Origin: Candidatus Saccharimonadota bacterium
Lineage (GTDB): Bacteria > Patescibacteriota > Saccharimonadia > Saccharimonadales > Saccharimonadaceae
NCBI GenBank assembly: GCA_017480035.1
Contig: JAFVBJ010000003.1
Location: 298,126-362,125, forward strand
Direction of reading: 5' to 3'
Length of the DNA: 64,000 nucleotides
In this document: in pieces, positions 9,543 to 46,784 of the stretch
How positions within the stretch are numbered: the first letter of the stretch is position 1
Layout of the letters: the number at the start of each line of letters is the position of its first letter
Made by a program: the position numbers and the translations under genes
The notes under the pieces: generated by a model
Seen by the model: the letters and a program-made list of their open reading frames with translations, nothing else
Told to the model about the DNA's origin: nothing
Databases searched by the model: none

Positions 9543-10982
9543 ATGGGTCTATTTGATAGAATTAGAAATGAACTAAAAGAAGAAAGATCTCCAGCGAAAA
9601 CTGGTTGGGAAAATATGGACGTGCGCCAGGAGCAGTCTGTCGAAAATGAGCGCCAGTCCGAAGTTCAGAAAAAACGCCAATACGATAAACTCATCCAAGT
9701 TTTGAAGCCTCAAACTCCAGACGTCTCGAAAGTTATGGGCGAGCCGGAGCCTGCCGGTCCAAACGACGAAGATATTGTTCTCGCGAAAATCGCCTATGGC
9801 CAGACTACGAGCAAAGATTTTGAAATGGTTTTAAACAACATTAAAGGCCCGCTCACTGATCGTTACGGCGAACAAAGCGAAAAAGCCATCTTTGGCGCAT
9901 TTTCGCGCATCTCAGACGACAAACATCAACTAAAAATGTTACAATTTGCAATCGGCCAAAATCCTGACGACTATAACAAAGCTGAACCTGATGCTGTTTC
10001 GCTCGCAGCTGACACATTTAAAAACCCAATGCAATTTGAAGCGAAAATGGAACCGTTCATGACCTATCTCGCAGAGCATAACTCTCCTGAAAAAGTCAAA
10101 GAATACGAAGAAGCTTTTGACGACTTATCAAAAAATCTTTTCGGAAAGAAATATGAATACTTCAAACGCATGCAGGAACTGACCGCCAAATCGGCTCGAA
10201 TTTTTGGCGCACCAGAAAAATCCCCATTAGTTCCGGAAGGTATCCCAGTAGTTGAAACCGAAAAATCGAGCGAACGCTTAATTAAAGGTGGCAGCTACTA
10301 CCAAATTTCACGTGCCCAAGCTAAAAATGGCATTCGTGCTGAATTTGGCCGCACGCTCGAATACGACCAAGATTGTGAAGATTCAAGTTTTGTCGACCCA
10401 GACAAAGGTTTCTTCGGCGTTTTTGATGGTGCTGGCGGACACGTTGGTGGACGTCGCGCTTCGAGTATCGGCGCCGCAACGATGGCGGACATGATGCGTC
10501 AATTTGGAGAACCAAAAACTCCAGCTGACCTTTCAGATTGGCTCGACGAAGCTTCGCGTCGTGTCTCAAATGACCCTAGTGCCGGTTACGCCACCGCCAC
10601 TCTCGCAAAAGTCATCAACAGTCAAAACGGCAAAAAGGCTGTGATATACGCCCAAGTTGGCGATTCCAGACTCTATATTATCCATAAAAATGGCCAAGCT
10701 GAGCTCGTCACGAAAGACGAAGGTTTTGAAAATAAAATTACAAACGCTCTCGGTTACGACCAAGACACTACTTGTCGTCAAGCCGGCTATCGTGAACTTG
10801 TGCCTGGCGACAAAATCATGCTTTGTTCCGACGGCATCACTGGCGACAAAGGTACTGATTTGATGAGCGAACAAGAAGTTGGCGCTATCGTTTCTGGTGT
10901 TGACACGGCTTATGCAGCTCAAGCTCTCGTTCATCAAGCCAGAAAAAGCGACGATCGCACGGCAATCGTCGCTGAAGTATAA
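9543..10982 (+). CDS. PP2C/PPM-family Ser/Thr phosphatase with long unknown N-terminal region
   Basis: CEDS, FGVFDGAGG, VGDSRLY, MLCSDGIT, DDRTAIV motifs in the C-terminal half. Confidence 0.85.
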   Translation: MGLFDRIRNELKEERSPAKTGWENMDVRQEQSVENERQSEVQKKRQYDKLIQVLKPQTPDVSKVMGEPEPAGPNDEDIVLAKIAYGQTTSKDFEMVLNNIKGPLTDRYGEQSEKAIFGAFSRISDDKHQLKMLQFAIGQNPDDYNKAEPDAVSLAADTFKNPMQFEAKMEPFMTYLAEHNSPEKVKEYEEAFDDLSKNLFGKKYEYFKRMQELTAKSARIFGAPEKSPLVPEGIPVVETEKSSERLIKGGSYYQISRAQAKNGIRAEFGRTLEYDQDCEDSSFVDPDKGFFGVFDGAGGHVGGRRASSIGAATMADMMRQFGEPKTPADLSDWLDEASRRVSNDPSAGYATATLAKVINSQNGKKAVIYAQVGDSRLYIIHKNGQAELVTKDEGFENKITNALGYDQDTTCRQAGYRELVPGDKIMLCSDGITGDKGTDLMSEQEVGAIVSGVDTAYAAQALVHQARKSDDRTAIVAEV

Positions 10983-11791: not shown

Positions 11792-12859
11792 ATGGATGCG
11801 TTCTATACTTCCACTGTTTTGGCTGAGACTATGGGTTTGTATTTTCCAGATTTCAAAAAAGAAGAAATCCGCATTCTCGAACCATCTGTCGGAACTGGCA
11901 ATTTACTGCCCGAAATTTTCAAAAAATATCAAAATAAAAAAGTTGTGATTGATGTTTTTGATGTTGATGAAAAAGTTTTGAAAAACCTCAAAAAATCTTT
12001 ACGCGAGATTCCGAAAAATTTCAAAATAAATTATTTTTGTGAAGATTTTTTGTCACATAATTTTCACGCAAATTATGATTTTATTGTTGCGAATCCGCCG
12101 TTCACTTTTGCGCAAGAATTTCTCGAAAAATGTTTGACGCTCGGCAATAAAATCGCAATGATTATGCCAAAAACTTTTTTGAGCTCCGAGAAATTTCGTC
12201 GCACGCGGGATTTTATCGAAAATATTGAAATCGAAAACATTTTAGATTTTGGCGAACGCGGATTTTCTGATGTAAAAATCGAAACGATATGTCTTTTTTT
12301 GAATGCAAACGGAAAACCAAGCGAGCATCAAAAATACATCACGGACAAATCATTTCCGTATTGGCTGCTTTATCGAAACGAAAAATTTGATAAATTTTTC
12401 AAAAAACTCGAACTCGGAATTTTTGATGTTGCGCGCGACCGCGATTTGAAAAATGAATTTTTATCATCCGAGAAATCTCCTGAAAACAATATTTGGGTTT
12501 TGCGTTCAAGAAATATCGCAAAAAACGGATTGAAACATTTTGAAAAATACGATAGATATACTTCAAAAGAAAATTTAAAAGGCACAAAAGCGGTAAAATT
12601 TTTGAATCGTGATGATGTTTTTCTTGTCCCAAACATGGCCGAAAAAATCCGCATTGCGAAAAAATCCAAAAATGTTGTTTGTAATGGCTCGGTTGCGATT
12701 TTGATTCCAAAGAATAATATAGAAATTTTCGAAAAAGATGTAGAGTTTTTTGAAAGTGATGAGTTTAACGAGTTTTATGACATTGCAACGAATCGCGCGA
12801 CCCGCTCAAGAAATATCGACAAAAATTCAGTTTTCTTCTTTGGAAAAAACCGAAGATGA
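11792..12859 (+). CDS. Orphan amino (N6-adenine-type) DNA methyltransferase, Eco57I/TaqI-like catalytic core
   Basis: Motif I ILEPSVGTGNLL, motif IV VANPPF, DFGERGFSDVKIET; AT-rich sequence; start at ATG 11792 after TGCTATAAT. Confidence 0.82.
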   Translation: MDAFYTSTVLAETMGLYFPDFKKEEIRILEPSVGTGNLLPEIFKKYQNKKVVIDVFDVDEKVLKNLKKSLREIPKNFKINYFCEDFLSHNFHANYDFIVANPPFTFAQEFLEKCLTLGNKIAMIMPKTFLSSEKFRRTRDFIENIEIENILDFGERGFSDVKIETICLFLNANGKPSEHQKYITDKSFPYWLLYRNEKFDKFFKKLELGIFDVARDRDLKNEFLSSEKSPENNIWVLRSRNIAKNGLKHFEKYDRYTSKENLKGTKAVKFLNRDDVFLVPNMAEKIRIAKKSKNVVCNGSVAILIPKNNIEIFEKDVEFFESDEFNEFYDIATNRATRSRNIDKNSVFFFGKNRR

Positions 12860-13093: not shown

Positions 13094-15313
13094 ATGGCAA
13101 AACGAAAGAAACGTAAATCTTCAAGAGAAGTAGCTCCTGAACATGAGCTTCCGGGTGGTTTCTGGCGTCAAGTTGGCGCAGTTGTTCTTCTTGCTCTCGC
13201 AGTCGTCCTCGTTATGACGTGGTTCGGCTCTGGTGGCACTATCTTAAACAACATTCATGCTGGCGCAACTTATGCGATTGGCTATGCAGCTTATTTCATT
13301 CCAATTTTGCTAGTCTATCTCGCTGTTTCGATTTTTCGCGCTGAAGGTAATCGCCTCCCAATCGTAACTTGGGTTGCGAGCTTTCTCATGGTCGCTTGGC
13401 TTTCTGGTATCTTCGGAATCCCTACTTTCGGTCAAGAAAACCCGACCGGTGGCGTCGTCGGCGAAGGCCTAAACACTCTCATGACTCAAATTCTCGATAA
13501 AGGTGTCGTTGTCTTTATCTATGTCGTTCTGATTTTTATCACTGGCATCTTCATTCTCGCGATTTCTCCAGCTTCCGTTTTTCGCTTCATTGGCGGACTT
13601 TTTCGTAGCACCAGAAAAAGCGAGGACCAAGAAAATGCAAAAATTGCGCGTCGTGCAAATGCCGAAGCAAGTTCCGCTCCAATTCGTGTTCGTGGCGGTA
13701 TTTCTGAAGCTGTCGCAAAAGCCGATGAAGAGAATAAAAAGCTTAATATCCATCGTCCAGCCGCCGAGAAAAAACCAGTCGAAGAAAAAGTCCCAGAGCG
13801 CGCACTCGTCGCTGTCTCTGATCCGAATTGGAAAATGCCTAGCACCGATCTTCTCTCGAAGAAGACGAATCCGCCTGATGGTGGCAACATCCAACAAAAC
13901 GCTGCGATTATTCGCCAAACTTACGAGCAATTCGGCATTAATGTTGAAATCGACGGCGCTAACGTCGGCCCGCGCGTCACGCAATATACTTTGAAGCCGC
14001 CTGCCGGCATCAACCTCGGAAAAATTACCGCTCGCGACAAAGAGCTCGCGATGAATCTCGCAGTCGACAAAATCCGTATCGAAGCTCCAATTCCTGGTAC
14101 AAACCTCGTCGGCGTTGAACTTCCGAACGCGCGCTCCGAAGGCGTTACTCTCCGTAGCCTTCTTGAATCTCCAGCTTGGAAAAAGGCCGATAAACCTCTA
14201 ACTTTTGTCGTCGGTAAAGATATTTCCGGCCAACCAATCATGGCAAACCTCGCCAAAATGCCACATCTTCTTATCGCCGGTACAACTGGTTCTGGTAAAT
14301 CCGTCATGACCAATATCTTGATTTCGAGTTTGCTTTATCGTAACGCTCCGAGTGATCTAAAACTTATCATCGTCGACCCGAAACAAGTTGAAATGGTCCA
14401 ATATGACGGCATCCCACATCTTCTCACCCCAATCATCAACTCGACCGACAAAGCTCTCTCGGCTATGAAATGGGCCGTAAACGAGATGGAGCGCCGCTAT
14501 ACGCAAATGGCGAGCGAACATGTTAAGAATATCGAAGATTACAACGCTAAAATCGCTAGTAGATCCGCCACCGTTAAAGATGAAGATGGCAACGACCAAC
14601 AACAAGAAGGCGCTAAAATGCCTTATATCGTCGTGATTATCGATGAGATGGCAGACCTCATGATGCAAGCCGGCAAAGACCTCGAACAGCCGATTGTCCG
14701 CATTGCCCAGAAAGGTCGTGCTGCTGGTATGCACCTTGTACTTGCAACTCAGCGTCCAGTCGTGAAAGTTATTACCGGCCTCATTAAGTCAAACGTCCCG
14801 GGTCGTATCGCTTTCGCCGTCAATAATAACCAAGATTCCCGCATCATGCTCGACATGGGTGGCGCCGAAAAATTGCTCGGTTCTGGCGATATGTTGATGC
14901 TTACGACCGAAATGATGGGTAAACCTCGTCGTATTCAGGGCGCTTTCGCTTCTGATGCCGAAATCGAAAAATTGACGAATTTCCTCCGCGAGCAACGCGC
15001 TCCAGAATATAATGACGAAGTTATCTCCCAAGCCGTTTCGGTTGGTCCTGGCGATGGAGGCTCAATCGGTGATTTTGGCCGTAAATATGACCCGAACGAC
15101 CCGCTAGTCCGAAAAGCTGTTGAGATTATGATTAGTAATGGTAAATTCAGTACCTCAATGCTCCAGACTTATCTCGGAAAAGGACATGGTTTTGTCTCTG
15201 GGCTCGCGCTTTGGTTTGGCGAAATTGGCGTAATCGGCGAAGCAAATGGCAACAAACCGCGTGATGTCCTTATCAGCTCTCTCGAAGAATTCGACGAGCT
15301 CGCAAATCACTAG
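13094..15313 (+). CDS. ftsK: DNA translocase FtsK/SpoIIIE
   Basis: N-terminal TM helices; GPRVTQY, PHLLIAGTTGSGKS, DPKQVE, IIDEMADLM, LATQRP, GAEKLLGSGDML; start ATG 13094. Confidence 0.95.
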   Translation: MAKRKKRKSSREVAPEHELPGGFWRQVGAVVLLALAVVLVMTWFGSGGTILNNIHAGATYAIGYAAYFIPILLVYLAVSIFRAEGNRLPIVTWVASFLMVAWLSGIFGIPTFGQENPTGGVVGEGLNTLMTQILDKGVVVFIYVVLIFITGIFILAISPASVFRFIGGLFRSTRKSEDQENAKIARRANAEASSAPIRVRGGISEAVAKADEENKKLNIHRPAAEKKPVEEKVPERALVAVSDPNWKMPSTDLLSKKTNPPDGGNIQQNAAIIRQTYEQFGINVEIDGANVGPRVTQYTLKPPAGINLGKITARDKELAMNLAVDKIRIEAPIPGTNLVGVELPNARSEGVTLRSLLESPAWKKADKPLTFVVGKDISGQPIMANLAKMPHLLIAGTTGSGKSVMTNILISSLLYRNAPSDLKLIIVDPKQVEMVQYDGIPHLLTPIINSTDKALSAMKWAVNEMERRYTQMASEHVKNIEDYNAKIASRSATVKDEDGNDQQQEGAKMPYIVVIIDEMADLMMQAGKDLEQPIVRIAQKGRAAGMHLVLATQRPVVKVITGLIKSNVPGRIAFAVNNNQDSRIMLDMGGAEKLLGSGDMLMLTTEMMGKPRRIQGAFASDAEIEKLTNFLREQRAPEYNDEVISQAVSVGPGDGGSIGDFGRKYDPNDPLVRKAVEIMISNGKFSTSMLQTYLGKGHGFVSGLALWFGEIGVIGEANGNKPRDVLISSLEEFDELANH

Positions 15314-41597: not shown

Positions 41598-43067
41598 ATG
41601 GAAGATTTTGAATCGACTTTTTTCTTTTATGACCTCGAAACTAGCGGCCTCGACCCGAGAGAAGACCGCATCATGCAATTTGCTGGTATCCGTACTGACC
41701 TCGATTTCAATCCTATCGGCGACCCGGTTAATATCCTCGTAAAACTTGCCGACGACACACTTCCAAGCCCCGGCGCCATCAACGTCACTCATATTACTCC
41801 TCAACAGACCCAGCTCGACGGTATTTCCGAACCAGAATTTTGTAAATATGTCCAAGAAGAAATTTTCACGCCCGGCACTGTCGAAATTGGCTATAATTCC
41901 GTCCGTTTTGATGATGAACACATGCGCTTTTGTTTTTATCGCAATTTCTATGACCCGTACGAATGGCAATGGAAAGATGGTCGTTCACGTTGGGATTTGC
42001 TCGATGTTGTTCGCATGGTGCGCGCTCTTCGCCCGCAGGGAATCAAGTGGCCATTCTCGACTGCCACGCGTAAAAAAGATGATGGTACCGAAGAAACTTT
42101 TGAAAAACCAAACAATCGTCTCGAAAACTTGACGAAAGAAAACGGCCTAAAACACGAACACGCTCATGACGCGCTTTCTGATGTCGAAGCTTTAATTTCC
42201 GTCACAAAACTCATTAAAGAAAAACAGCCGAAACTCTTTGACTATCTTTTTAAAATGCGAAACAAAAAGTTCGTTGCATGCCAGCTTGATAGTAAATCCC
42301 CGCTCGTCTACACTACTGGTCGCTATTCGTCGAAGTTTTGGCATACGAGTGTCGTTTTTCCGCTTTGTAATTTTAAAGATGGTCGTGCACTTGTTTTTGA
42401 CCTTCGCTATAATCTCGATGAGTTACTCGAAGCCGAGAAAAATTTCAAACCTGAAGAAAAGACTGACCGTTTTGGCCGAAAATATATCACAAAATTCTCT
42501 TGGTTTCCGATTGTTAAAGAACTTGCATATAATAAATGCCCGGCGATTGCTCCGATTGGCGTATTAGATGCCGAATCGGAACCAGGCAAAACTGGCTGGG
42601 AACGCATCAGTCTCGAAAAGTCTCAAGTCGAGAAAAATCTCGAAATCCTAAAATCTCACCCAGAATTTGCCGAACATATGCAAAAACTTTTTGCGGATAA
42701 GAAGGATTCATACGTGAAGTCCGAAGATGCTGACGCGCAGCTCTATGACGGCTTCATTCCGGATGGCGACCGCGTCAAAATGAAAGATGTGCGTGGCCGA
42801 AACGCTAATGAACTCGCAGATTATCATCCAATGTTTGAAGACCCGCGTCTTTCTGACCTACTTTTGCATTATAAGGGCCGTAATTTCCCAAATTCTTTCG
42901 ACGAAACCGAGCAAAAACAATGGGAAAAATATCGCCTTGCTCGTCTCCAAAAACAAGAAAAGATTTTTGTTGCCGAACTCGAAAAAATGAAAGACGAAAT
43001 GGATCCAAATCTCCTCGAAGATTTGTTGCTTTGGTACCAAAGTTTAGCCTCTGGCGATTACGAGTAA
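41598..43067 (+). CDS. sbcB: Exodeoxyribonuclease I
   Basis: FFYDLETSG, DRIMQFAGIRTD, GYNSVRFDDE, RWDLLD, HAHDALSDV, NKCPAIAP, LLHYKGRNFP. Confidence 0.93.
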   Translation: MEDFESTFFFYDLETSGLDPREDRIMQFAGIRTDLDFNPIGDPVNILVKLADDTLPSPGAINVTHITPQQTQLDGISEPEFCKYVQEEIFTPGTVEIGYNSVRFDDEHMRFCFYRNFYDPYEWQWKDGRSRWDLLDVVRMVRALRPQGIKWPFSTATRKKDDGTEETFEKPNNRLENLTKENGLKHEHAHDALSDVEALISVTKLIKEKQPKLFDYLFKMRNKKFVACQLDSKSPLVYTTGRYSSKFWHTSVVFPLCNFKDGRALVFDLRYNLDELLEAEKNFKPEEKTDRFGRKYITKFSWFPIVKELAYNKCPAIAPIGVLDAESEPGKTGWERISLEKSQVEKNLEILKSHPEFAEHMQKLFADKKDSYVKSEDADAQLYDGFIPDGDRVKMKDVRGRNANELADYHPMFEDPRLSDLLLHYKGRNFPNSFDETEQKQWEKYRLARLQKQEKIFVAELEKMKDEMDPNLLEDLLLWYQSLASGDYE

Positions 43068-43139
43068 AAATGTCCTAAAACTTGACTTTCTATCTGTTAT
43101 ATGCTAATATTTTTTGAAAAGAAGGGAGTTTATTTTCTG

Positions 43140-43823
43140 ATGATTTACGGTTATATTCGTGTCTCGACTGACAAGCAGACTGTCGAAAATCAACGTTTTG
43201 AAATCAACAATTTTTGTAAGCAGAAAAAACTCAAAATCGACGGTTGGATTGAAGAAACGATTTCCGGAACAAAAGAATATGATAAACGCGAACTCGGCCG
43301 CTTACTTAAGAGAATTAAAAAAGGCGATCTTATAATCTGCGTTGAGCTCTCCCGCCTCGGCCGTAATCTTTTTATGATTATGGAAATTCTTAATATCTGT
43401 ATGACGAAAGAATGCCAAGTTTGGACAATCAAGGACGGCTATCGTCTCGGTGATGACATCCAAGCAAAAGTTCTTGCTTTTGCGTTCGGACTTTCTGCCG
43501 AAATTGAAAGAACTTTACTCTCCCAAAGAACAAAAGAAGCGATGGCTCGTTTAAAATCAGAAGGGAAACGTCTTGGCCGTCCAGTTGGCAGCCATCTTCC
43601 TCAGACTTCATATAAATGCTATGGTGGCGATAAAAAGATTGTAAGAATGATGAATAATGGCGTCTCTTGGACAAAAATGGGCGCGAGGTTTGACGTCACC
43701 CATTCAACCCTAAAAAACTATGTCGTGCGCTTCCTTCCGGAATACGCTGATTATGATAGTGAAAACCCCGCAACTTACCCGGCTAATAAGAAAATTGGCG
43801 CCTTGGACTCTGTACAAAAATAA
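43140..43823 (+). CDS. Serine recombinase (resolvase/invertase), Mpi master DNA invertase-like
   Basis: Start ATG 43140; MIYGYIRVSTDKQTVENQRFEI, ELSRLGRNLFMIMEILN, FAFGLSAEIER, GKRLGRP, C-terminal HTH. Confidence 0.88.
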   Translation: MIYGYIRVSTDKQTVENQRFEINNFCKQKKLKIDGWIEETISGTKEYDKRELGRLLKRIKKGDLIICVELSRLGRNLFMIMEILNICMTKECQVWTIKDGYRLGDDIQAKVLAFAFGLSAEIERTLLSQRTKEAMARLKSEGKRLGRPVGSHLPQTSYKCYGGDKKIVRMMNNGVSWTKMGARFDVTHSTLKNYVVRFLPEYADYDSENPATYPANKKIGALDSVQK

Positions 43824-43862
43824 CTTTTTGTGGTAAAATATACGCGTTAAAAACGGAGATAA

Positions 43863-46784
43863 ATGATGGCAAATGGACTTTTAAGCCCAGCCGGAATCAA
43901 AATGCAAAACGGAGACGAAAATTGCATCAAAATTCGCGGCGCAAGGCAGCACAATCTGAAAGATATTGATATTGACATCCCGCGCGAAAAACTCGTCGTG
44001 ATTACCGGGCTTTCTGGCTCTGGAAAATCAAGCCTAGCTTTCGACACAATCTACGCTGAAGGCCAGCGTCGCTATGTCGAATCGCTTTCAAGCTACGCCA
44101 GAATGTTTCTCGGTGTGATGGACAAGCCTGATGTCGACACTATCACTGGTCTTTCTCCGGCCATCTCCATCGACCAAAAATCGACTTCGAGGAACCCGCG
44201 TTCGACCGTCGCGACCGTGACCGAAGTCTATGATTATCTCCGTCTTCTCTTTGCACGCGTCGGCGTGCCACATTGTCCGATTTGTCATCGCGAAGTTTCT
44301 AGGCGTAGCGTCGAAGATATTGTGAATGAAGTGATGAAACTTCCTCTCGGCAGCAAACTTATGCTCCTCGCCCCAATCGTCCAACAGAAAAAAGGCGAAT
44401 TCCAACACATCTCCGAACAATTCATCCAAAAAGGTTTCTCGCGCGTCCGTGTCGACGGAATCGTTTACGCTCTCGACGAATTTCCGGAACTTGAAAAGAA
44501 TATTAAACACGACATCGAAATCGTCGTTGATCGCTTCATTTTGTCGCCAGATTTACTCTCGCGTATTTCCGGTTCAATCGAGCAAGCTCTCGATCTTGGT
44601 CAGGGAATCATTAAACTTTTGAGAATTAACGACAATTCCAGTTCCATCGAGCAAAAAAATCTCGAAGATACTGAAGTCTTGACCTATTCCCAGCGCTACG
44701 CCTGCGAATATCACCCGGACGAACTCATTCCGGAACTCGAACCGCGTTTATTCTCGTTCAATGCTCCGCAAGGCGCTTGTCCGACCTGTACCGGTCTCGG
44801 TAGCCGTCTCGAAATCGACCCGAATCTCGTTTTCAATAAAAACTTAACAATCGCCGAAGGTGGAATTCGTCCGTTTAATCGTATCCGTGATGATTCTTGG
44901 TGGATGAAACGTTTGGATGCCGTCGCGAATCGCCATAATTTTTCTATCCATATTCCAATCAAAGATTTGACCGAAGAACAAAAACAACTCATTCTCTACG
45001 GCACCGGTGATGAAAAATACCAAGTCCGCATTAACGGCTCTGGTAAATGGCAAGAAGGCGCTGTCTACGAATCAACTTACGAAGGTGTCATCCCAACTCT
45101 CGAGCGTCGTCATAAAGAAACCGACTCTGAATTTATCCGTAAAGACATCGAACGTTTCATGCGCGTTCGCGAATGTCAAACCTGTCATGGCGCTCGTTTA
45201 AAGCCAGCCGTGCTCGCTGTCACAATCCATGATCTAAATATCGTCGACATGTGTAATCTCGACGTCGATTCGACACTCGAAGTTTTGTCTCAAGACCTCG
45301 AATTTTCCGAATCGGAGCAAATGATTGCGAAACCAATTTTGAAGGAAATTAGAGAGCGCATTAAATTCATGCAAGACGTCGGTCTCGGTTACATCGAACT
45401 CGGCCGCGCCGCCAACACACTTTCTGGTGGCGAAGCTCAACGTATTCGCCTTGCGACTCAAATTGGTTCCGGCCTCCAAGGTGTGCTTTACGTTCTTGAC
45501 GAACCGTCCATCGGCCTTCATCAACGCGACAACGACAAATTGATTGCCACTTTGAAGCATCTTCGCGACTTGAAAAACACTGTTCTCGTCGTTGAGCACG
45601 ACGAAGATACCATGCTAAGCTCCGATTATCTTATCGATATCGGCCCGAAAGCCGGCAATCTCGGCGGTGAAGTTGTTGCGGTTGGCACCCCAGAAGAAGT
45701 CATGAAAAATGAAAATTCCATCACCGGAAAATATCTTGCCGGGAAAATGACGATTGAAGTTCCGAAAAAACGCCGTAAAGCTAAAGTTGGCAAAGAGCTA
45801 GTTGTAAAAGGTGCTCGTGAAAATAATCTGAAAAATATCGACGTACATTTTCCACTTGGCGTGATGACCGTCGTTTCTGGTGTTTCTGGCTCTGGCAAAT
45901 CCACGCTCGTTAACGAAATTCTCGCGAATGAACTTCTCGCAAAATATCATCGCGCCCAAACCGTTCCAGGCGCGCACGACGCAGTTGAAGGCACTGAAAA
46001 TCTTGATAAATGTATCGTGATTGACCAGTCTCCAATCGGCCGCACTCCACGCTCTAATCCTGCGACCTACACCGGTGTTTTCAACCAAATCCGCGAGCTT
46101 TTCGCCAAACAACCAGAAGCTGAGATTCGTGGCTATAAAGCCGGCCGTTTCAGTTTTAATATCAAAGGCGGTCGTTGCGAACACTGTCAGGGCGACGGCG
46201 TAAATAAAATCGAGATGCACTTCCTTCCGGATGTTTATGTCACTTGTCCGGCCTGTCATGGCAAGAGATATAATCGTGAAGCGCTCGAAATAAAATATAA
46301 AGGCAAAGATATTTCACAAGTTCTCGATATGACAATCGACGAAGCAGTCGAATTCTTCAAAAATATCCCGAGTATTGCGCCAAAATTAAAAACTATCCAA
46401 GAAGTTGGTCTCGGTTATATCCGTCTCGGCCAGCCAGCCACGACTTTCTCTGGCGGCGAAGCCCAACGCATTAAACTTGCAACCGAGCTTTCTCGTCGCT
46501 CGACCGGAAAAACTCTCTATATTCTCGATGAGCCAACCACCGGGCTTCATACCGACGACGTCAAACGTCTCCTTGCTATCTTGAATCGCTTAGTCGATGG
46601 TGGAAATTCGATGATTATTATCGAGCATAACCTCCACGTCATTAAGAGCGCGGATTGGATTATCGATATGGGCCCAGAAGGTGGCCAGAAAGGCGGAATG
46701 GTTGTCGCGGAAGGCACTCCGGAAGACCTCGCAAAAAGAACAGATACGCCAACCGGTCAGTTCTTGAAAAATTTCATAAAATAG
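43863..46784 (+). CDS. uvrA: Excinuclease ABC subunit A
   Basis: [41 protein letters not shown], second SGGEAQR, Zn fingers. Confidence 0.97.

What the first reader, a model, noticed from the sequence alone, without database searches (positions are those of the whole stretch)
43082..43823. Stand-alone Mpi-like master DNA invertase: candidate trans-acting phase-variation system in a CPR epibiont
Seen: intact small serine recombinase (YIRVS, LSRLGR, C-terminal HTH) with its own promoter (TTGACT-17-TAATAT), sitting between sbcB and uvrA with no transposase, plasmid genes, res-site array or flanking IRs. Known, from recalled sequence: long stretches (DKQTVENQRFEI, ELSRLGRNLFMIMEILNICMTKEC, KVLAFAFGLSAEIER) closely resemble Bacteroides Mpi, which inverts many dispersed promoters of surface-polysaccharide loci in trans. 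Inference: acquired from Bacteroidota and possibly flipping promoters or segments of pilin, adhesin or T4SS genes elsewhere in the genome. No target is visible in this window.
Basis: partly seen in the sequence, partly recalled or inferred. Interest (0 to 1): 0.75.

Follow-up and report, generated by a model that had tools for sequence, protein, structure and literature searches.

The report
Mpi-type DNA invertase in Saccharibacteria
A tiny rumen Saccharibacteria genome keeps an intact DNA-flipping enzyme of the Bacteroides Mpi family. The same genomes carry a surface-protein gene whose end is swapped by DNA inversions about 41 kb away, so this enzyme is the likely, but unproven, switch operator.

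Summary
Window 43140-43823 (+) encodes an intact 227-aa small serine recombinase between sbcB and uvrA. It has its own promoter-like site and no transposase, res array or flanking inverted repeats.

It passes NCBI's Mpi-family model (310 bits, cut-off 272) and is about 70% identical to gut Bacteroidales Mpi. In a tree it sits in a strongly supported Saccharibacteria-only clade nested among gut Mpi genes. Members of that clade lie in Saccharibacteria chromosomal context, nearly all directly upstream of uvrA. The gene is under purifying selection with saturated synonymous sites, so the acquisition is old.

No Bacteroides-type Mpi site occurs in this genome. A real target candidate lies about 41 kb downstream, outside the window. 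It has four copies of an 81-nt repeat: one expression site (start plus signal peptide) and silent C-terminal cassettes, mostly glycine-rich domains. Near-identical assemblies (99.98%) show at least four arrangements.

The repeat core is multi-copy only in Mpi-bearing species: 3 of 4 syntenic ones, none of 365 others in the genus. One such species has only a Xer-type recombinase and Mpi.

Catalysis by Mpi is inferred, not shown.

The parts
41598..43067 (+). sbcB (exonuclease I), upstream flank of the insertion
   Evidence: Pfam RNase_T plus Exonuc_X-T_C. In same-genus species without mpi, sbcB abuts uvrA.
43082..43110 (+). Promoter-like site TTGACT-17-TAATAT of the invertase gene
   Evidence: Consensus scan gives 9 of 12 matches with a TG before the -10 box. 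It is a consensus match only.
43122..43129 (+). Ribosome-binding site GAAGGGAG
   Evidence: Read directly from the sequence. It lies 10 nt before ATG 43140.
43140..43823 (+). Mpi-family small serine recombinase gene (227 aa plus stop)
   Evidence: NF009949 scores 310 bits against a cut-off of 272. The same protein occurs at the same place in at least 6 other assemblies.
43143..43568 (+). Catalytic (resolvase) domain, residues 2-143, with the Ser9 nucleophile
   Evidence: Pfam PF00239 at 1.4e-33. Y5, R7, S9, D63, R72, R75 and E121 are invariant in A1. pN is 0.05-0.15 against pS of 0.65-0.85.
43575..43754 (+). GRP hook and helix-turn-helix DNA-binding part, residues 146-205
   Evidence: It aligns with the HTH part of Mpi homologues. 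The recognition helix (H-S-T-L-K-N-Y) differs from other Mpi clades. It evolves faster, with pN of 0.33-0.44.
43755..43820 (+). Clade-specific acidic/aromatic C-terminal tail (FLPEYxDYDSxNPxTYP...)
   Evidence: It is present only in the syntenic Saccharibacteria orthologues of alignment A1.
43811..43839 (+). Promoter-like site of uvrA (TGTACA-17-TAAAAT, TG-extended)
   Evidence: Found by the consensus scan.
43863..46784 (+). uvrA, downstream flank
   Evidence: Pfam UvrA_inter and UvrA_DNA-bind. The mpi-uvrA adjacency is conserved in nearly all clade members examined.

Best explanation
The gene encodes a working small serine DNA invertase of the Mpi family. An ancestor of a group of ruminant-gut Saccharibacteria acquired it once, by horizontal transfer from gut bacteria with Bacteroidales-type Mpi. 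It landed as a single gene in the sbcB-uvrA spacer and has been inherited vertically under purifying selection since.

Its most likely job is to act in trans on a multi-site inversion system (a shufflon) at G000 C3:381,840-385,110, continuing through an unassembled ~2.9-kb gap to C1:1-78. That is about 41 kb downstream of the gene and outside the window.

The shufflon has four copies of an ~81-nt repeat, R. R encodes ..SSNYTGNTNINTSNA.SVTLTAQW and the copies lie in alternating orientation.
- One copy follows a start codon and signal peptide. This is the expression site.
- The other three are preceded by stop codons and lead into silent C-terminal cassettes. Three cassettes are ALK/LTK-type glycine-rich domains and one is a small 139-aa domain.
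- Inversion between oppositely oriented R copies puts a different C-terminal domain behind the signal peptide, so the secreted or surface protein changes.

Shown: the gene's family, integrity, selection, synteny and origin; the anatomy of the shufflon; and that it exists in several arrangements in nature.

Inferred: that the inversions are site-specific; that Mpi is the enzyme; and that the varied protein matters for attachment to the host bacterium or for evasion.
For: Family:
- NF009949 equivalog scores 310 bits against a cut-off of 272.
- Catalytic residues are invariant.
- The tree places the gene in a 23-row clade (support 100/99). Every member whose context was examined lies in Saccharibacteria chromosomal DNA, and the clade is nested in the gut Mpi radiation.

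Age and function:
- Orthologues at 73-81% aa identity lie in conserved chromosomal context, directly upstream of uvrA in all but one examined.
- pS is saturated while pN is 0.05-0.15 in the catalytic domain.
- mpi-less congeners have an empty sbcB-uvrA junction.

Target:
- Assemblies L087 and L088 are 99.98% identical in the flanks but differ by a clean 3,095-bp inversion bounded by R2 and R4.
- L090 has the 2.2-kb R1-R2 segment inverted.
- G000 itself has the R2/R3 arrangement and breaks its contigs at R2 and R4.
- L089 carries both U1-Ca and U2-Ca junctions.
- Only R3 has an open upstream frame with a signal peptide.

Link to Mpi:
- A 35-nt R pattern occurs in 3 of the 4 syntenic-mpi species and in 0 of 365 other genomes of the genus.
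- Across 185,579 species genomes, the core is multi-copy only in the two listed Mpi-bearing Saccharibacteria, G091 and G118; G000's own records may be left out of that scan.
- The fourth syntenic species has clustered inverted glycine-rich-domain (GRD) cassettes.
- G091 is 97% complete in 4 contigs. Its whole site-specific recombinase set is one Xer-type tyrosine recombinase plus Mpi, and its switch lies 7-8 kb from mpi.
- In G000 the only recombinase beside the shufflon is a frameshifted tyrosine-recombinase pseudogene.
- In G118 nine R copies share only a 23-nt invariant core. That is too short for efficient RecA exchange, yet six copies lie at contig ends.
- Other Mpi-family genes in this genus sit in or beside their own invertible units.
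Against:
- R has no clear dyad-symmetric site of the serine-invertase kind.
- R does not resemble the Bacteroides core ARACGTWCGT (recalled from memory). It also does not resemble the ATAATAAAYG-GT-CRTTTATTAT site of the self-contained Mpi elements in G298 and G349.
- RecA is present, and in G000's species R copies are 96-100% identical over 78-81 nt. Homologous recombination could therefore produce the inversions.
- Crossovers map to the longest identical stretch (45 nt), which both mechanisms predict.
- The co-occurrence is confined to one clade, so it amounts to about one evolutionary event.
- The adjacent tyrosine-recombinase pseudogene suggests the system once had a different enzyme.
- A large serine recombinase also exists in G000.
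Confidence: 0.55

Rival explanations
1. The invertase is functional, but the glycine-rich-domain shufflon is rearranged by RecA-dependent homologous recombination between the 80-200-nt repeats, or by the Xer-type or large serine recombinase. Mpi then acts on other, still unseen targets.
For: RecA is present. R copies are 96-100% identical over 78-81 nt in G000's species, and the second-locus inverted repeats are 200 nt long. R contains no recognisable Mpi-type site. A tyrosine-recombinase pseudogene lies beside the shufflon. At 99.98% identity between assemblies there may have been time for rare homologous events.
Against: A genome-wide search for inverted-repeat families found no other candidate target set. 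G118's nine copies share only 23 invariant nt, yet they coincide with contig breaks. Three arrangements occur among near-identical assemblies and mixed junctions occur within samples, which suggests frequent switching. Xer enzymes are normally dedicated to dif. G091 has no large serine recombinase.
Confidence: 0.27
2. The gene is a domesticated recombinase with a role other than inversion. Examples would be resolution of replicon multimers, excision, or sequence-specific DNA binding linked to the neighbouring repair genes sbcB and uvrA.
For: Its position beside uvrA is conserved across species. The syntenic clade has its own conserved C-terminal tail, and the HTH part evolves fast.
Against: All catalytic residues are kept under strong purifying selection. 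The characterised member of the family is an invertase, and the related copies in this genus lie in or beside invertible units. In one clade member (P0018) the downstream neighbour is ribosomal protein L1, not uvrA, so the repair-gene link is not obligatory.
Confidence: 0.1
3. The gene is a leftover resolvase of a Tn3-type transposon, plasmid or phage and has no present function.
For: Small serine recombinases often come from mobile elements. The gene arrived by horizontal transfer.
Against: No transposase, res sites, inverted repeats or mobile genes lie nearby. It scores as an Mpi equivalog, not as a resolvase family. It is intact in many species with pN far below pS. It groups with Mpi in the tree.
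Confidence: 0.03

Closest known systems
Mpi, the multiple-promoter serine invertase of Bacteroides fragilis (Coyne et al. 2003; as described in PMC5903667, PMC4611039, PMC12632263)
   Same: It belongs to the same protein family by NCBI's equivalog model and is about 70% identical to Bacteroidales members. It is a stand-alone gene away from its presumed targets. The presumed role is to vary surface structures by DNA inversion in trans.
   Different: The host is a 0.77-Mb Saccharibacteria genome. The candidate targets are in-frame C-terminal coding cassettes, not promoters of polysaccharide loci. The repeats are 81-200 nt rather than about 19-25 bp, and they lack the recalled ARACGTWCGT core. 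The recognition helix differs and a clade-specific C-terminal tail is added. Activity is untested.
Gin/Cin/Pin/Min serine-invertase systems that swap tail-fibre C-termini (Mu G segment, P1 C segment, p15B Min)
   Same: Crossover sites lie at the junction between a constant 5' part and alternative 3' cassettes of one gene. Multiple sites in alternating orientation give several arrangements. The presumed enzyme is a small serine invertase.
   Different: In those systems the invertase gene abuts the invertible DNA, the sites are 26-bp dyads, and Fis plus an enhancer are needed. Here the gene is 41 kb away (7-8 kb in G091), no dyad is evident, and the locus is chromosomal and cellular, not phage.
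R64-type shufflon (Rci) and Rin shufflons of Bifidobacterium prophages (Mavrich et al. 2018, named in earlier scan notes)
   Same: One expression site is paired with several silent C-terminal cassettes. The repeats are asymmetric, lie in frame, and alternate in orientation. All predicted junction types are seen in nature.
   Different: Those systems use an adjacent tyrosine recombinase. Here the adjacent tyrosine recombinase is a frameshifted pseudogene in G000, and related species have none beside the locus.

Membership tests
Mpi family of serine invertases (NCBIfam NF009949) | Whole-protein score above the curated equivalog cut-off | tested here: met
   310 bits against a cut-off of 272, over profile positions 1-196 of 203. 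A six-frame genome search gave 309.8 bits.
Mpi family of serine invertases (NCBIfam NF009949) | Small serine recombinase build: N-terminal catalytic domain with a Ser nucleophile, plus a C-terminal HTH | tested here: met
   Pfam Resolvase matches residues 2-143. S9, R7, D63, R72 and R75 are invariant, and the GRP-HTH part aligns.
Mpi family of serine invertases (NCBIfam NF009949) | Phylogenetic placement among Mpi proteins rather than resolvases | tested here: met
   It is nested in a clade with Prevotellaceae, Odoribacter, Paludibacteraceae and Bacteroidales Mpi.
Mpi family of serine invertases (NCBIfam NF009949) | Gene stands alone, not next to the DNA it inverts | tested here: met
   No inverted repeats above chance lie within +/-7 kb, here or in the orthologous loci.
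Mpi family of serine invertases (NCBIfam NF009949) | Inverts several dispersed IR-flanked regions in trans | not testable with these tools
   Candidate targets were found, but no assay or reads were available.
Mpi family of serine invertases (NCBIfam NF009949) | Target repeats carry the core ARACGTWCGT (recalled from Coyne et al. 2003; that paper is not held in the library) | tested here: not met
   9 hits against about 6 expected, none paired. All but one of the 35 ACGWWCGT matches lie inside genes. The generalised AAAYGNNCRTTT motif is at chance level.
Hin/Gin/Cin/Min-type invertible cassette systems | Crossover site at the constant/variable junction inside the coding sequence | tested here: met
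   R lies in frame. Homology starts 4-5 codons before Y-T-G. SNPs in the 3' part of R always travel with the downstream cassette.
Hin/Gin/Cin/Min-type invertible cassette systems | Invertase gene adjacent to or inside the invertible DNA | tested here: not met
   mpi is about 41 kb away in G000 and 7-8 kb away in G091.
Hin/Gin/Cin/Min-type invertible cassette systems | 26-bp dyad-symmetric recombination sites with a 2-bp core | tested here: inconclusive
   By eye, only a weak TTCC-N12-GGAA symmetry is seen in the mapped 45-nt crossover window, and the second-locus repeats of G118 lack it.
Tyrosine-recombinase shufflons (Rci/Rin type) | Adjacent intact tyrosine recombinase | tested here: not met
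   Beside the locus there is only a frameshifted remnant (21 bits). G091 and G118 each have only the Xer-type gene.
Tn3-type resolvase | Neighbouring transposase and res sites | tested here: not met
   The flanks are sbcB and uvrA. No repeats are present.

The most novel reading that the evidence does not exclude
A horizontally acquired Mpi-family invertase has become the single trans-acting master switch of an ultrasmall epibiont. It would work on a new, non-dyad site embedded in coding sequence. It would shuffle up to nine alternative C-terminal domains onto one secreted surface protein (two separate loci in some species). This would change which host bacteria the epibiont can attach to, or how it escapes host or phage recognition.
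Probability: 0.3. Interest if true: 0.8.

Novelty: new variant of a known kind. Interest (0 to 1): 0.62.

Why it matters
Saccharibacteria live attached to other bacteria and have very few regulators. How they vary their surface is largely unknown. The paper searches here found no report of a chromosomal shufflon or an Mpi-type system in this group.

This work gives a concrete, testable pair:
- one small invertase gene, and
- a defined 23-45-nt crossover region in a surface-protein cassette system that demonstrably exists in several arrangements in rumen and gut populations.

If the link holds, it shows that a Bacteroidales phase-variation enzyme crossed phyla and was re-used on a different kind of target. 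It would also give a handle on host-attachment variation in candidate phyla radiation (CPR) bacteria. If the link fails, the inversion system still stands as a finding.

Tried and rejected
- Bacteroides-type site core ARACGTWCGT and ACGWWCGT: at chance level, almost all inside genes, none paired.
- The site of the self-contained Mpi elements of G298 and G349, as a 22-nt pattern and as AAAYGNNCRTTT: at chance level in G000.
- Local inverted repeats around mpi, here and in three orthologous loci: only weak chance pairs.
- Genome-wide clustering of inverted-repeat arms by shared 9-mers: only the promoter motif TGGTATAAT emerged.
- Long inverted repeats about 2.2 kb apart at C2:80229/82636 and C3:27786/30093: these are DGR template/variable repeats with reverse transcriptases, not invertons.
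- The 39-nt perfect inverted repeat flanking secY and sortase: two copies of a dispersed GC-rich element, with no reason to expect inversion.
- Short-gap perfect hairpins: terminator-like, with no Rfam family.
- Exact-protein look-ups for TspO and an NTP-transferase found nothing.
- One genome-contig scan was wasted on a pattern with the wrong spacer length.
- The original Mpi paper (PMC193581) is not held, so the site core rests on memory.

Full report
THE GENE

The ORF reported at 43082-43823 is real. The likely start is ATG 43140, 10 nt after GAAGGGAG, which gives a 227-aa protein.

- Residues 2-143 match Pfam Resolvase at 1.4e-33.
- The whole protein scores 310 bits against NCBIfam NF009949, 'master DNA invertase Mpi family', whose curated equivalog cut-off is 272. 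All other recombinase models score below 41 bits.
- Ser9, Arg7, Asp63, Arg72 and Arg75 are invariant in an alignment with 13 homologues, and a GRP hook plus helix-turn-helix follows.
- The neighbours are exonuclease I (sbcB) and uvrA.
- Nothing mobile is nearby, and no inverted repeats above chance lie within 7 kb.

THE ORGANISM AND THE HISTORY OF THE GENE

The window lies in a 772,806-bp, 3-contig, 97.5%-complete genome. Its closest named relatives are Candidatus Saccharibacteria MAGs from roe-deer rumen and goat duodenum.

The identical protein lies between sbcB and uvrA in at least six other metagenome assemblies. Orthologues with 73-81% aa identity lie directly upstream of uvrA in several other Saccharibacteria species. 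In one (P0018) the downstream neighbour is ribosomal protein L1 instead.

In the genus, 9 of 369 species carry an Mpi-family gene:
- Four have it at this syntenic place: G000, G091, G118 and G362.
- Five have it elsewhere.

Same-genus species without the gene have sbcB abutting uvrA. The gene therefore went in as a single ~0.8-kb insert.

A maximum-likelihood tree puts all syntenic copies in one clade of 23 rows (support 100/99). That clade is nested among proteins of Prevotellaceae, Odoribacter, Paludibacteraceae and other Bacteroidales, and of some Clostridia. The five non-syntenic Saccharibacteria copies fall in other clades, so they are separate acquisitions. The family also occurs in gut Alphaproteobacteria, Cloacimonadota and Treponema.

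Between syntenic orthologues, synonymous sites are saturated (pS 0.65-0.85). Non-synonymous change is 0.05-0.15 in the catalytic domain and 0.33-0.44 in the DNA-binding part. The gene is therefore old, inherited vertically and kept by selection. The syntenic clade has its own conserved C-terminal tail, FLPEYxDYDSxNPxTYP.

THE SEARCH FOR TARGETS BY SITE

The Bacteroides core that I recall, ARACGTWCGT, is at chance level in this genome and is never paired. The original paper is not held in the library.

Two independent Mpi-family genes in the genus, in G298 and G349, lie inside their own 0.9-1.0-kb segment. That segment is bounded by CCRCCAATAATAAAYGGTCGTWTAWTWTGT, a dyad ATAATAAAYG-GT-CRTTTATTAT that resembles the recalled core. 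A third, in G226, sits beside an Eco57I/MmeI-type methyltransferase with an inverted specificity-domain fragment. Neither form of that site occurs in G000 above chance. A genome-wide search for families of inverted repeats gave only a promoter motif.

A REAL INVERSION SYSTEM OUTSIDE THE WINDOW

The inverted-repeat scan flagged an 81-nt pair at C3:382701-382781 and 384967-385047, with a third copy at C1:1-78.

Fetching other assemblies through the ATPase gene that lies between the arms showed four copies of the repeat R. In L087 coordinates they are R1(-) 9653-9733, R2(+) 11919-11996, R3 13694-13770 and R4(-) 14934-15008.

Only R3 has an open upstream frame, MFMKIVAFSATIFLLINVSIKENEVGRRY, which is a start codon plus a signal peptide. 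R1, R2 and R4 are preceded by stop codons. Downstream of the four copies lie four different cassettes:
- three ALK/LTK-type glycine-rich domains (Pfam PF12810), and
- one small 139-aa domain.

The arrangements seen are as follows.
- L087 and L088 are 99.98% identical in 12 kb of flank and differ by a clean inversion of 3,095 bp between R2 and R4.
- L090 has the 2.2-kb R1-R2 segment inverted at 99.98% identity.
- The junction table shows upstream context U1 joined to cassette Ca or Cd; U2 joined to Cb, Cd, Ca or Cc; and U4 joined to Cd or Cb.
- L089 holds U1-Ca and U2-Ca together.
- G000 itself has U2-Cc (an R2/R3 inversion), breaks its contigs at R2 and R4, and lacks the 2.9 kb between them.

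Three SNPs in the 3' 35 nt of R always travel with the downstream cassette. Crossovers therefore fall in the 5' 45 nt, CTTCCTCAAATTACACCGGAAATACAAACATAAACACAAGCAATGC. This is a shufflon: one expression site, with silent C-terminal cassettes exchanged by inversion.

THE LINK TO THE INVERTASE

1. A 35-nt degenerate R pattern (up to 3 mismatches) is found in G000 (3 copies), G091 (2) and G118 (3). It is found in none of the other 366 genomes of the genus, including the five with non-syntenic Mpi genes.
2. A 27-nt core pattern scanned over 185,579 species genomes is multi-copy only in G118 (9 copies) and G091 (2). There are five unrelated single hits against about 2 expected by my calculation.
3. 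The fourth syntenic species, G362, is 74% complete. It has five glycine-rich-domain genes, four of them clustered in alternating orientation with long inverted repeats.
4. G091 has a simpler switch. An 1,133-bp segment carrying the promoter and the 5' half of the gene lies between two 87-nt inverted repeats and faces two alternative cassettes, only 7-8 kb from its mpi gene. R copies are near-identical within a species and about 75% identical between species, so they evolve in concert.
5. G091 (97% complete, 4 contigs) has exactly one tyrosine recombinase, the Xer type next to pilD, and one serine recombinase, Mpi.
6. In G000 the only recombinase sequence beside the shufflon is a frameshifted tyrosine-recombinase remnant of 21 bits.
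7. G118 has one expression site and eight silent cassettes. Their only invariant stretch is 23 nt, TCCTCTACATACACCGGAAATAC, yet six copies lie within 800 nt of contig ends. Repeats that short should not break an assembly unless alternative junctions are present, and they are poor substrates for RecA. That last step is my inference.
8. G091 and G118 each have a second switch locus with about 200-nt inverted repeats 1.1 kb apart. Again one arm is open upstream and one arm is stopped.

WHAT REMAINS OPEN

Nothing here shows Mpi cutting R.
- R has no clear dyad and looks unlike either known form of Mpi-family site.
- RecA is present.
- The co-occurrence is confined to one clade and so counts as about one event.
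- The neighbouring pseudogene hints at an earlier, different enzyme.

I put the full chain (functional invertase, site-specific shufflon, Mpi as its enzyme) at about 0.55. Of the parts, the gene identity is near certain and the reality of the inversions is about 0.9.

Comparing independent assemblies served as a substitute.

COMPARISON WITH WHAT IS KNOWN, AND NOVELTY

NCBI already names related proteins in Saccharibacteria MAGs as Mpi-family recombinases, so the annotation itself is not new.

Searches of the held papers found no report of a shufflon or an Mpi-type system in Saccharibacteria. One survey lists a few type I restriction-modification invertons with invertase homologues there. Earlier notes of this scan describe tyrosine-recombinase shufflons in Saccharibacteria prophages and a self-contained Mpi-type switch in a ruminant Bacteroidales genome. 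The latter resembles the elements I saw in G298 and G349.

The present case works like a Gin/Min or Rci shufflon in what it does to the gene, and like Mpi in where the enzyme gene sits. It differs from all three in site form and in host. I class it as a new variant of a known kind.

Noticed in passing
G000 C3:381840-385110 plus C1:1-78 (about 41 kb beyond the gene, outside the window); full locus in L087:8790-15020: Four-site inversion system. It swaps C-terminal cassettes (three glycine-rich ALK_LTK_GRD domains and one small domain) behind a single signal-peptide expression site. At least four arrangements occur in public assemblies, and the G000 assembly has a 2.9-kb gap here.
   Followed up: yes
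G000 C3:~381430-381750 (L087:8380-8700): Frameshifted and shortened tyrosine-recombinase pseudogene right beside the shufflon. Fragments read ..LRISDLLKLRWDDV.. and ..LRKTWGYHAW..NHPSYEVTKRYLGV.. . It may be the system's former enzyme.
   Followed up: partly
G000 C2:80229-82820 and C3:27786-30180: Two diversity-generating retroelements. Each has an RVT_1 reverse transcriptase between inverted template/variable repeats with A-to-N mismatches. The targets are a Flg_new-repeat protein and a Fib_succ_major protein.
   Followed up: partly
G000, about 15 places, e.g. C2:147937-148048, C2:327528-327635, C2:123898-123999, C2:354587-354699, C1:25830-25911, C3:291358-291522: A GC-rich 40-52-nt element (..GACCTAAAGACTTGG..CCGGAGCGGGGAG..) sits in the loop of locus-specific, perfect 20-31-bp AT-rich hairpin stems that look like bidirectional terminators. 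There is no Rfam match. It could be a small mobile element that targets terminator loops.
   Followed up: partly
G000 C2:36356-36523 and C2:86857-87014: Two ~110-nt elements share a conserved core (..CGTCAGGA..TTCCCAGGCTGCGCCA..GTGCTCGC.TGGGAA..CGCTGG..). Each is closed by a locus-specific 24-28-bp stem. There is no Rfam match.
   Followed up: partly
L084:9793-10882 (G298) and L083:9332-10285 (G349): Independently acquired Mpi-family genes lie inside their own 0.9-1.0-kb segment. It is bounded by 30-35-nt inverted repeats with the dyad ATAATAAAYG-GT-CRTTTATTAT. In G298 the segment lies between large paralogous genes of unknown function in opposite orientation. In G349 it abuts the contig end, so only one flank is visible. 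The non-syntenic copies in G184 and G349 both lie at contig ends.
   Followed up: partly
L085:8400-9950 (G226): An Mpi-family gene lies next to an Eco57I/MmeI-type methyltransferase. The methyltransferase's TaqI_C specificity domain has an inverted silent copy (229-nt inverted repeat), and a PLD-SNF2 helicase gene lies beside it. This is a likely specificity-switching restriction system.
   Followed up: partly
L130:4752-6231 (G091 C3:~369.7-371.2 kb) and L133:2922-4443 (G118): A second switch locus. About 200-nt inverted repeats lie 1.1 kb apart between two glycine-rich-domain cassettes. One arm has an open upstream frame and the other is preceded by a stop.
   Followed up: partly
L087:10001-11203 (G000 C3:383049-384251) and L099:146-1426 (G118): An AAA_14/DUF4143 ATPase gene lies inside an invertible segment of the shufflon in two species. 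In G118 it is a 1,558-bp contig of its own that carries an R copy near one end.
   Followed up: no
G000 C2:314905-319782 (L033:3905-8782): Two small paralogous genes of unknown function face each other 4.1 kb apart and share ~370 nt of 85%-identical 5' sequence including the promoter. This could be another recombination-prone pair. The assembly look-up failed.
   Followed up: partly
G000 C3:118738-~120490: A 584-aa large serine recombinase is the only other serine recombinase in the genome. Its context was not examined.
   Followed up: no
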